A stretch of 64,000 bases of DNA from Felis catus (taxonomy: Eukaryota), in NCBI RefSeq assembly GCF_018350175.1, contig NC_058371.1, positions 103,292,001 through 103,356,000 on the forward strand. Direction: 5' to 3'. Shown here piece by piece: positions 54,292-56,070 of the stretch (within the stretch, counting starts at the first letter, position 1; the number at the start of each line of letters is the position of its first letter). The position numbers were made by a program, and so were the translations under genes. The notes below the pieces were generated by a model. The model was not told the origin of the DNA and ran no database searches. It saw only the letters and a program-made list of their open reading frames with translations.

Positions 54292-54466
54292 ATTGCCTTG
54301 GCTGTAAAGAGGACTATGCTTGTCCCCAGTGTGACTCGAGTTTTACCAGTGAGGAAATTCTTGCTGAGCACCTTCAGACATTGCACCAGAAACCTACAGA
54401 GGAGAAAGAATTTAAGTGCAAGAACTGTGGGAAGAAATTCCCAGTTAAGCAGGCTTTGCAAAGACA
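54292..54466 (+). CDS. PRDM5: PRDM5 exon 5: zinc finger 1 (CPQC...HLQTLH) and most of finger 2 (CKNC...QALQRH)
   Basis: gtacag|ATTGCC acceptor, AGACA|gtgcgt donor; 175 nt, phase 1-2. Confidence 0.95.
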
Positions 54467-54546
54467 GTGCGTACAGCAAAGAATATCTTTAAAATTATAA
54501 CCTAACACTTTCGTTTTTAACTATTCTATTTGATTTGTTTTATACG

Positions 54547-54580
54547 TGTGTGTGTGTGGGTGGGTGTGTGTGTGTGTGGG
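54547..54580. repeat. (TG)n/(TGGG)n microsatellite 80 nt downstream of exon 5
   Basis: Seen directly. Confidence 0.9.
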
Positions 54581-55594
54581 TATCAGTGATGGAGACAGGG
54601 GGTGGGGAGGAAGAAAGTAAGCATTCTATATTGTCATTGTCATTAACTTATCTTTTCTTAGTATAATATGGTGATTTTTGAAACATTCTGATTATGAACT
54701 TCCAACAAGTAAACATTATTTATGCTAATAAGTCTTTGTCCATTTATTTACTTGCCATTAAATATCAAATCAAGCTCATTGATTTACTATTCAGAAATTC
54801 ATTTATGCATAATTTAGTGCTCTGAGGTCACAGATCAAGTTTCAGTTGTCTGCATTTGATATTCCCTCTGGAATCAGTGAAGAGTTTTAAGAAATGAAGA
54901 GAGTTTAGAGAATAAAGAATACGGGGACACTTGGGGAAGCACTGTTTATTTCTTAGCAACTTAGGAGGAATAATTTGAAGATGAATAGATATAGGCTGTC
55001 ACATGAAGATGAATTAAATGATCCCACACATTGCTCGGTACCCTTTATTATTTTGACTCTTTATATTAACAGCATATAAATTTATCTTTTTACTTAAATA
55101 TTTTACAGGATCATTAATTATTAAAAGTGAGAAATTAGATACGTGTATTTTTTATTTTAAGAATGTCACCTTGTATATGAGCAAGAAAGCTTTCATGTTT
55201 ACTATTTTAATATATGCATCTACTTTTGCTTATGAAATTTGAAATGAAAAATTTCTGCTCAAAACTTAAAAAAATTATAATAGCAAGAGATTAAACATTT
55301 GGAAATTTTGTTATAGGCTCTTGAAAAAAAAACAAGCCAGGGCTATATACTTTTTAGAGACTAGATGTTAAAACTGCATTCTAGTCAGCTTTTATTGAGT
55401 TTACACCAAAGATACTTTTGCTTAGTCGGGTCTTATAGTTAAATTAGGTACTACCAAAAATTAAAGGGACAAAAAACAAAATGAAAACAGAGATCACCAA
55501 CAGGATTTTATTTAAAGTAGAGATATTTTTCATAAGTTTTTGTCTTACACATCCAGTTTTTATTTCTTTTTGTTTTTTTCTATTTCCCCCTCAG

Positions 55595-55687
55595 CGTTCT
55601 TCAGTGCACAGCGAAAAGCAGTCTGAAGGATTCTTCACGAAGTTTTCAGTGCTCTGTTTGCAATTCTTCCTTCAATTCAGCATCGAG
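55595..55687 (+). CDS. PRDM5: PRDM5 exon 6: end of finger 2 (HVLQC), linker, first part of finger 3 ([15 protein letters not shown])
   Basis: Long pyrimidine tract + cctcag|CGTTCT; TCGAG|gttttg donor; 93 nt, phase 2-2; the correct frame is not in the ORF track. Confidence 0.93.
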
Positions 55688-55948
55688 GTTTTGTGTCTGA
55701 GTTATCACATGGCTGTTACATAATCGTGGGTCATTTTTGGCAGGCATGCTTTTTATGCTTCTTAGTGATTAAGTATCACATGGCTACAAGATAAGTGCTT
55801 TCCTTTTTACCTGCCCAGGTAATGCATGAAATGACCCAGAAACTCTACTAGAGAGCATGCATTGCAAAAGCCTGTTGTGCTGTTAGACTTCATAAGATAT
55901 GTCTTCACCATTTCTTCTCCCTGTTCCCCTCTCCTGGTTGTTTTGTAG

Positions 55949-56070
55949 TTTTGAGCAGCACCAGGAGACTTGCCGGGGAGATGCCAGGTTTGTGTGCAAG
56001 GCCGACAGCTGTGGAAAGAGGCTGAAGAGCAAGGATGCCCTCAGAAGACACCAGGAAAATGTCCATGCTG
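55949..56070 (+). CDS. PRDM5: PRDM5 exon 7: end of finger 3 (FEQHQETC) and finger 4 (CKADSC...HQENVH)
   Basis: ttgtag|TTTTGAG acceptor, GCTG|gtgaga donor; 122 nt, phase 2-1. Confidence 0.95.

What the first reader, a model, noticed from the sequence alone, without database searches (positions are those of the whole stretch)
54292..56070. Exon 6 as a zinc-finger switch: skipping fuses two C2HC fingers into one canonical C2H2 finger
Seen: with exon 6 (55595-55687, 93 nt, phase 2-2) included, fingers 2 and 3 both end in Cys: CKNC-x12-H-VLQ-C and CSVC-x12-H-QET-C. Joining exon 5 (..AGA CA) directly to exon 7 (T TTT GAG CAG CAC) stays in frame and reads [21 protein letters not shown], an exact C-x2-C-x12-H-x3-H finger that borrows finger 3's first His as its last ligand. 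The exon 6 donor AG|GTTTTG is the poorest consensus match of the six. Established: C2HC fingers (e.g. FOG/U-shaped) often mediate protein contacts while C2H2 arrays bind DNA. Inference: skipping would change both finger number and ligand chemistry, possibly altering partners or targets. I recall a human isoform 31 aa shorter but cannot verify it here; the isoform may be annotated even if this consequence is not discussed.
Basis: partly seen in the sequence, partly recalled or inferred. Interest (0 to 1): 0.7.

Follow-up and report, generated by a model that had tools for sequence, protein, structure and literature searches.

The report
Optional zinc-finger exon in PRDM5
This mammal's gene for the connective-tissue regulator PRDM5 has an already catalogued optional exon; skipping it removes one zinc finger, the neighbouring finger is predicted to stay folded by borrowing a histidine, and some rodents have likely made the skip permanent, so it is likely a tolerated shortcut rather than a switch between protein and DNA binding.

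Summary
The skipped form is already catalogued: human isoform Q9NQX1-2 lacks residues 218-248 and mouse Q9CXE0 has the 599-aa skip length (PMC4009873). All 93 skip forms among 416 stored homologs read H-x3-H. Added here: exon 6 is frameshifted in single ground-squirrel and lemming gene models, other squirrel and cricetid models lack it, and the Cys needed only with exon 6 is lost in three lineages. Finger 2 keeps a fourth ligand in 393 of 395 proteins, while finger 3 decays in fruit bats. Against a DNA/protein switch: the finger's base-reading positions do not change, its linkers stay non-canonical, and another skip in this gene also yields a perfect hybrid finger. A homozygous frameshift inside exon 6 causes human brittle cornea syndrome, so skipping does not rescue in people. 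Three GCATG motifs in intron 6 are a weak lead for regulation. Inclusion levels were not measured. The scan held no earlier PRDM5 finding.

The parts
54292..54466 (+). PRDM5 exon 5: finger 1 and finger 2 up to the first two bases of its His codon
55595..55687 (+). PRDM5 exon 6, 93-nt in-frame cassette: last ligand (Cys, 55605-55607) of finger 2, a 14-residue linker, and the two Cys and most of the helix of finger 3
   Evidence: exon number as in the human gene (PMC7774228 passages)
55685..55693 (+). weak donor of exon 6, GAG|GTTTTG, 2 of 7 consensus positions
55744..55859 (+). three GCATG motifs (55744, 55824, 55855) in the 261-nt intron 6; candidate RBFOX sites (motif recalled), function untested
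   Evidence: 3 seen, 0.23 expected; one of 2 such clusters in the window
55949..56070 (+). PRDM5 exon 7: His 55959-55961 (third ligand of finger 3, or predicted fourth ligand of finger 2 on skipping), Cys 55971-55973, finger 4
28497..28619 (+). PRDM5 exon 3 (PR domain), context
51829..52003 (+). PRDM5 exon 4 (end of PR domain), context
59997..60076 (+). PRDM5 exon 8 (finger 5), context

Best explanation
Exon 6 of PRDM5 is an in-frame optional exon whose skipping deletes finger 3, while finger 2 is predicted to stay folded by taking a His from exon 7 in place of its Cys, and the skip is likely a tolerated shortcut rather than a switch from protein to DNA binding. Shown: exon anatomy, frame, motif, weak donor, both isoforms in databases. 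Inferred: (1) the weak donor lets part of the transcripts skip, mostly in placental mammals; (2) the His binds zinc, so the short protein is sound and selection does not remove the skip; (3) what selection keeps is a complete finger 2, while finger 3 is the expendable part; (4) squirrels and cricetid rodents let exon 6 decay and now make only the short form; (5) both forms bind much the same DNA through the regular finger 6-15 array, any difference lying in the spacing and surface of the finger 1-5 region; (6) in people the long form still supplies too much of the protein for the skip to bypass a frameshift in exon 6.
For: Human isoform 2 lacks 218-248 and mouse Prdm5 is listed as one 599-aa form (PMC4009873 passages). 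Of 416 stored homologs 93 skip and 286 include; His stands at +4 in 93 of 93 skip forms. 5 of 21 Logan-only proteins carry the junction on contigs of 1.4-2.2 kb, i.e. spliced sequence. Skip forms: 85 of 183 placental records, 8 of 233 others. Squirrel family 9 of 10 models skip and the tenth is frameshifted; cricetids 6 of 7 skip and the seventh is frameshifted. The trailing Cys is Gly in 9 of 93 skip forms, from three lineages. Finger 2 has Cys or His at +4 in 393 of 395 proteins. Finger 3 has lost two ligands in Pteropus and three, His included, in an unnamed Pteropus-like protein that includes exon 6. Linkers and helix residues; TGEKP-type linkers mark DNA-binding arrays (PMC8084297 passages). 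A second skip also gives a hybrid finger.
Against: Exon 6 is old and well kept: all four of finger 3's ligands and finger 2's Cys are present in 275 of 286 inclusion forms from sharks to mammals, and its finger positions differ from chimpanzee at 0-2 of 19 sites in most placentals, so finger 3 does something in most vertebrates. Mouse and rat keep a readable exon 6 with all Cys; its faster divergence is nominal in Mus caroli (p 0.025) and absent in rat (p 0.22), uncorrected. A homozygous exon 6 frameshift causes disease, which also fits a special role of the long form. Three GCATG motifs behind the exon suggest regulation. The two frameshifts rest on one gene model each, and absence of an inclusion model is not proof of exon loss. 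Database rows are redundant isoform models, and one search was baited with a skip form. The folds are of low confidence (mean pLDDT 55.5 and 57.2, no zinc).
Confidence: 0.6

Rival explanations
1. Regulated switch: inclusion is controlled by tissue, perhaps by RBFOX proteins bound in intron 6, and the C2HC pair is a docking site for a partner that the short form cannot bind.
For: Weak donor with strong acceptor; 3 GCATG in intron 6 against 0.23 expected, raw p 0.0017; skip forms in many placental orders; deep conservation of both C2HC fingers; human disease from an exon 6 frameshift; precedent in PRDM1, whose exon 7 skip loses DNA and G9a/HDAC binding.
Against: The motif cluster was seen by eye first and is one of 49 motif-region tests (about 0.08 after correction), with conservation untested; squirrels and cricetids appear to live without the long form; finger 3 decays in fruit bats; no FOG-type match.
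Confidence: 0.22
2. The short form is splicing noise or a weaker protein in most mammals, and became fully functional only in some rodents after further change.
For: Skipping does not rescue homozygous exon 6 frameshift patients; skip models are rare outside placentals, 8 of 233, several of them plain gene predictions; PRDM5 has many other annotated skips, some of which break fingers.
Against: The rodent short forms differ little from the cat's in the junction region, and mouse Prdm5, listed at the skip length, regulates collagen genes (PMC3349747 passages).
Confidence: 0.12
3. The hybrid is not a C2H2 finger: with five candidate ligands (C, C, H, H, C) zinc may take the trailing Cys or exchange between His and Cys.
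For: The trailing Cys is kept in 84 of 93 skip forms; with more than four candidate ligands the set cannot be read from sequence alone (PMC7614390 passages).
Against: The Cys is lost in hamster and tree squirrels, whose models all skip, while the His is kept; the model's confidence falls below 50 right after the His (222-229).
Confidence: 0.06

Closest known systems
Human PRDM5 isoform 2 (UniProt Q9NQX1-2) and mouse Prdm5 (Q9CXE0, 599 aa), as tabulated in PMC4009873 (passages)
   Same: The same event: residues 218-248 missing; the mouse entry has the skip length, and 6 of 8 stored Mus/Rattus models skip.
   Different: The passages give no consequence for the fingers; PMC3349747 (passages) calls all 16 fingers C2H2, although fingers 2 and 3 end in Cys. 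Exon decay in squirrels and cricetids is not mentioned in what I read.
PRDM1/Blimp-1 delta-exon7 (PMC4009873 and PMC3811882, passages)
   Same: A PRDM-family exon skip inside the zinc-finger region.
   Different: There the finger domain is drastically cut and DNA, G9a and HDAC1/2 binding are lost; here one finger outside the regular array is removed and its neighbour keeps a full ligand set.
FOG/U-shaped CCHC fingers (Liew et al. 2000, seen only as a reference title in PMC7614390; details recalled)
   Same: Classical finger with Cys as last ligand.
   Different: PRDM5 spacing is H-x3-C, FOG's is H-x4-C (recalled); no FOG chain among the 60 best PDB matches.
Loss of symmetric cassette exons in single lineages (general phenomenon, recalled; one search listed related papers, seen as listing only)
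   Same: In-frame exon, skipped in relatives, frameshifted in some lineages.
   Different: Here the sequence shows why the loss is tolerated: a spare ligand lies four residues behind the junction.

Membership tests
PRDM5 (PR/SET domain zinc-finger protein 5) | orthologous sequence with PR domain and finger array | tested here: met
   exon 5 peptide 100% identical to felid PRDM5 records; exons 3-8 align at 87-94% to a 630-aa PRDM5
In-frame cassette exon | length a multiple of three, same phase on both sides, both isoforms on record | tested here: met
   93 nt, phase 2-2; both forms annotated, e.g. rabbit 630/599 and lungfish 678/647
Regulated cassette exon | inclusion that changes with tissue or stage, conserved intronic elements | not testable with these tools
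   no junction counts were obtained and no other vertebrate genome was at hand; only a motif count in this window
Classical C2H2 finger (hybrid finger) | C-x2-C-x12-H-x3-H with core Phe and Leu | tested here: met
   93 of 93 skip forms have the second His
Classical C2H2 finger (hybrid finger) | beta-beta-alpha fold | tested here: inconclusive
   AlphaFold2 gives two strands and a helix through the junction at pLDDT about 66, in a model of mean 55.5
Classical C2H2 finger (hybrid finger) | zinc bound by two Cys and two His | not testable with these tools
   no metal in the models; only the indirect loss of the trailing Cys in three lineages
DNA-binding tandem C2H2 array | short TGEKP-type linkers to neighbouring fingers (PMC8084297) | tested here: not met
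   hybrid finger has 10 and 11 residues to its neighbours; 7 between fingers 6-15
FOG/U-shaped CCHC protein-binding fingers | H-x4-C spacing and GATA-contact surface (recalled) | tested here: not met
   H-x3-C in both fingers; no FOG chain in the 60 best of 248 matches for finger 2; finger 3 was not searched
Pfam zf-C2HC_2 (PF13913) | score above the curated cut-off | tested here: not met
   best stretch is finger 2 (200-221), 19.3 bits for the protein against 27
Ubiquitin-binding CCHC fingers (NEMO/UBZ type, recalled lead) | match to a UBZ profile or solved UBZ finger | tested here: not met
   zf_UBZ touches only finger 1, 13.7 bits against 25.6; none in the 60 best PDB matches

The most novel reading that the evidence does not exclude
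Exon 6 is an RBFOX-controlled switch of placental mammals that adds a two-finger C2HC docking module to PRDM5; people need that module in cornea and connective tissue, while mice mostly and squirrels and hamsters wholly run on the short C2H2 form, so mouse PRDM5 work has studied a different protein from the one lost in brittle cornea syndrome.
Probability: 0.17. Interest if true: 0.6.

Novelty: new member of a known kind. Interest (0 to 1): 0.3.

Why it matters
The isoform is known and splicing that edits zinc-finger arrays is a known kind of event, so the surprise is modest. The value is practical and evolutionary. Human and mouse reference PRDM5 differ by this exon, which bears on how far mouse results carry over to brittle cornea syndrome. 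Patients with an exon 6 frameshift offer a direct test of whether the short form can stand in for the long one. The rodent and bat lineages are a natural experiment on how an exon can be lost from the middle of a finger array without breaking a finger.

Tried and rejected
Sequencing-run search: no RNA holder listed; four RNA runs were offered only by species label. Junction reads were not counted, so inclusion level in this species is open. Search of 50% representatives for a jawless-vertebrate or invertebrate ortholog: the list was filled by long unrelated finger arrays; 8 of 148 new proteins matched the N-terminal part, none recognisably jawless, so whether exon 6 was inserted into an older C2H2 finger cannot be told; Prdm5 is reported as vertebrate-specific (PMC4760075 passages). 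NEMO/UBZ-type ubiquitin binding of finger 2, a recalled lead: no support; no complex was folded. 'The His is kept even when finger 3 dies': first suggested by Pteropus, rejected as a rule by P0434, which lost it. 'Mouse lost exon 6': rejected, Mus caroli and rat have 630-aa models. QKI, NOVA, MBNL and PTB-like motif counts showed nothing; the UGUG excess in intron 5 is a GT microsatellite. Papers not held: PMC2099216, PMC4634368, PMC3113239; they may map partners to fingers. No supplements were read.

Full report
What is there. The exon 5 peptide is 100% identical to felid PRDM5 records, and a 630-aa PRDM5 maps to six exons of the window, 3 to 8 (ends). Exon 6 (55595-55687) is 93 nt and is entered and left after the second base of a codon. 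With it, finger 2 ends H-VLQ-C and finger 3 ends H-QET-C; without it the frame holds and finger 2 ends H-FEQ-H. Its donor matches 2 of 7 variable positions of the recalled consensus, the other five donors 4-6 of 7; its acceptor has 20 pyrimidines in 22 positions, the most of the six.

The skip is real and known. A review table lists human isoform Q9NQX1-2 as lacking 218-248 and mouse Q9CXE0 as a single 599-aa form (PMC4009873, passages). Among the 416 proteins stored, 93 skip and 286 include; 37 lacked an anchor or had other spacings. By group, 85 of 183 placental records skip (unlisted ids were counted as placental) and 8 of 233 others, among them a RefSeq lungfish isoform (647 against 678 aa). 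These rows are redundant gene models, not independent events, and one search was baited with a skip form. Five of 21 Logan-only proteins carry the junction on contigs of 1.4-2.2 kb, too short to be genomic; processed gene copies are not excluded. Junction reads for this species were not counted, so the inclusion level is open.

Which residue is the fourth ligand. The skip tail offers His at +4 and Cys at +8. His is present in 93 of 93 skip forms; the Cys is Gly in 9, from Pteropus, Cricetulus and Sciurus. The His is also finger 3's own ligand, so its conservation alone proves nothing; the hamster and squirrel cases count because their models all skip. AlphaFold2 draws two strands and a helix through the junction at pLDDT about 66 and falls below 50 at 222-229, but both models are poor (means 55.5 and 57.2; PR domain unfolded; no zinc). 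With five candidate ligands only metal-substitution work decides (PMC7614390, passages).

A natural experiment. In the squirrel family 9 of 10 models skip; in cricetids 6 of 7; both gerbil models skip. The two remaining models, Ictidomys P0181 and Lemmus P0205, start in the coding frame of the window's exon 6 and pass into another of its frames, the mark of a frameshift (finger positions differ from chimpanzee at 10 of 17 and 14 of 19). Each rests on one model. Mus caroli and rat keep a 630-aa model with all Cys, with 10 and 13 of 31 residues changed against 1-5 in most non-rodent placentals; mole rat, kangaroo rats and beaver include the exon. In Pteropus finger 3 has lost its first and last Cys. 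An unnamed protein nearest to Pteropus (267 of 299 identical) includes exon 6 and has lost both N-terminal Cys and the His: this tells against 'the His is always kept', and fits a simpler rule. Finger 2 has Cys or His at +4 in 393 of 395 proteins; the exceptions are the frameshifted Ictidomys model and a whale model with a 9-nt piece of the exon. Inference: selection keeps a complete finger 2, by either route, and finger 3 is the part that can go. Against this stands the depth of conservation elsewhere: 275 of 286 inclusion forms keep all five ligands concerned.

Is it a switch between protein and DNA binding? The helix positions -1, 2, 3 and 6 of finger 2 (V, Q, A, R) lie in exon 5 and do not change. 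Linkers between fingers 1-6 are 10, 14, 7, 9 and 4 residues; the hybrid finger has 10 and 11; fingers 6-15 have 7. Short TGEKP-type linkers are the mark of DNA-binding arrays (PMC8084297, passages), so the skip is unlikely to add a DNA-reading finger (inference). Finger 2's 60 best of 248 PDB matches are ordinary classical fingers, with no FOG or UBZ chain, and zf-C2HC_2 scores 19.3 bits against a cut-off of 27. As a control, the annotated felid skip of residues 315-395 also gives a perfect hybrid C2H2 finger, and the skip of 542-576 breaks fingers, so a tidy junction is not unique to exon 6.

What speaks for a role of the long form. A child homozygous for c.713_716del, p.(Val238Alafs*35), in exon 6 has brittle cornea syndrome (PMC7774228, abstract and passages); the allele is tabulated for a further patient (PMC11219502, passages). 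Skipping therefore does not rescue in people, through too little short protein or through a need for the long one. Intron 6 holds three GCATG motifs 57, 137 and 168 nt behind the donor, against 0.23 expected (raw p 0.0017; about 0.08 over the 49 tests; seen by eye first; 5 of 1236 sliding windows and 2 clusters in the window reach three). That RBFOX proteins bind this motif and raise inclusion from downstream is recalled, and conservation was not tested.

Comparison with what is known. The event is the catalogued isoform 2. The closest described mechanism is the PRDM1 exon 7 skip, which loses DNA and corepressor binding (passages). PMC3349747 (passages) describes 16 C2H2 fingers and its passages hold no mention of isoforms. 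Searches listed no paper whose title or abstract start deals with the hybrid finger or with loss of the exon in rodents; one search showed no occurrence of 'hybrid zinc finger' or 'chimeric zinc finger' in the 25 of 109 papers listed. The library lacks most subscription papers, and three key PRDM5 papers were not held. PMC8547655 (passages) added nothing on isoforms. The scan's own notes held nothing on PRDM5; one unchecked note on VEZF1 reads an optional finger exon in a similar way.

Verdict. Observation confirmed; isoform already known; the ligand hand-over is likely; the rodent fixation is a likely and apparently undescribed addition; the DNA/protein switch is not supported. Tolerated skip 0.60, regulated partner switch 0.22, noise or weaker protein 0.12, other ligand set 0.06. 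Interest 0.3.

Noticed in passing
window 55595-55609: An internal donor (TCA|GTGCAC) lies 9 nt into exon 6; a right-whale RefSeq model (P0115) reads as if only these 9 nt were used, giving H-VLH-FEQ-H with no ligand at +4.
   Followed up: partly
stored proteins P0002-P0007, P0010 (felid isoforms, 549 aa): An in-frame skip of residues 315-395 joins finger 5 to the end of finger 8 in register and makes another intact C2H2 finger; unlike exon 6 it cuts into the regular array (checked in P0002).
   Followed up: partly
window 55643-55973 and 59997-60076: Finger 3 is most like finger 5 (score 54, next 47), a hint of an old internal duplication; finger 2 does not pair best with finger 4.
   Followed up: partly
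window 54547-54580: GT microsatellite 80 nt behind the exon 5 donor; it accounts for the UGUG excess there.
   Followed up: no
window 26378-26545: The only other cluster of three GCATG motifs within 261 nt, about 2 kb before exon 3.
   Followed up: no
stored proteins P0197, P0220 (Tamandua) and P0199, P0221, P0095 (bats or bat-like): Fingers 1-2 diverge fast in anteater (23 of 51 sites) and vesper bats (12 of 51), while fingers 6-13 hardly change.
   Followed up: no
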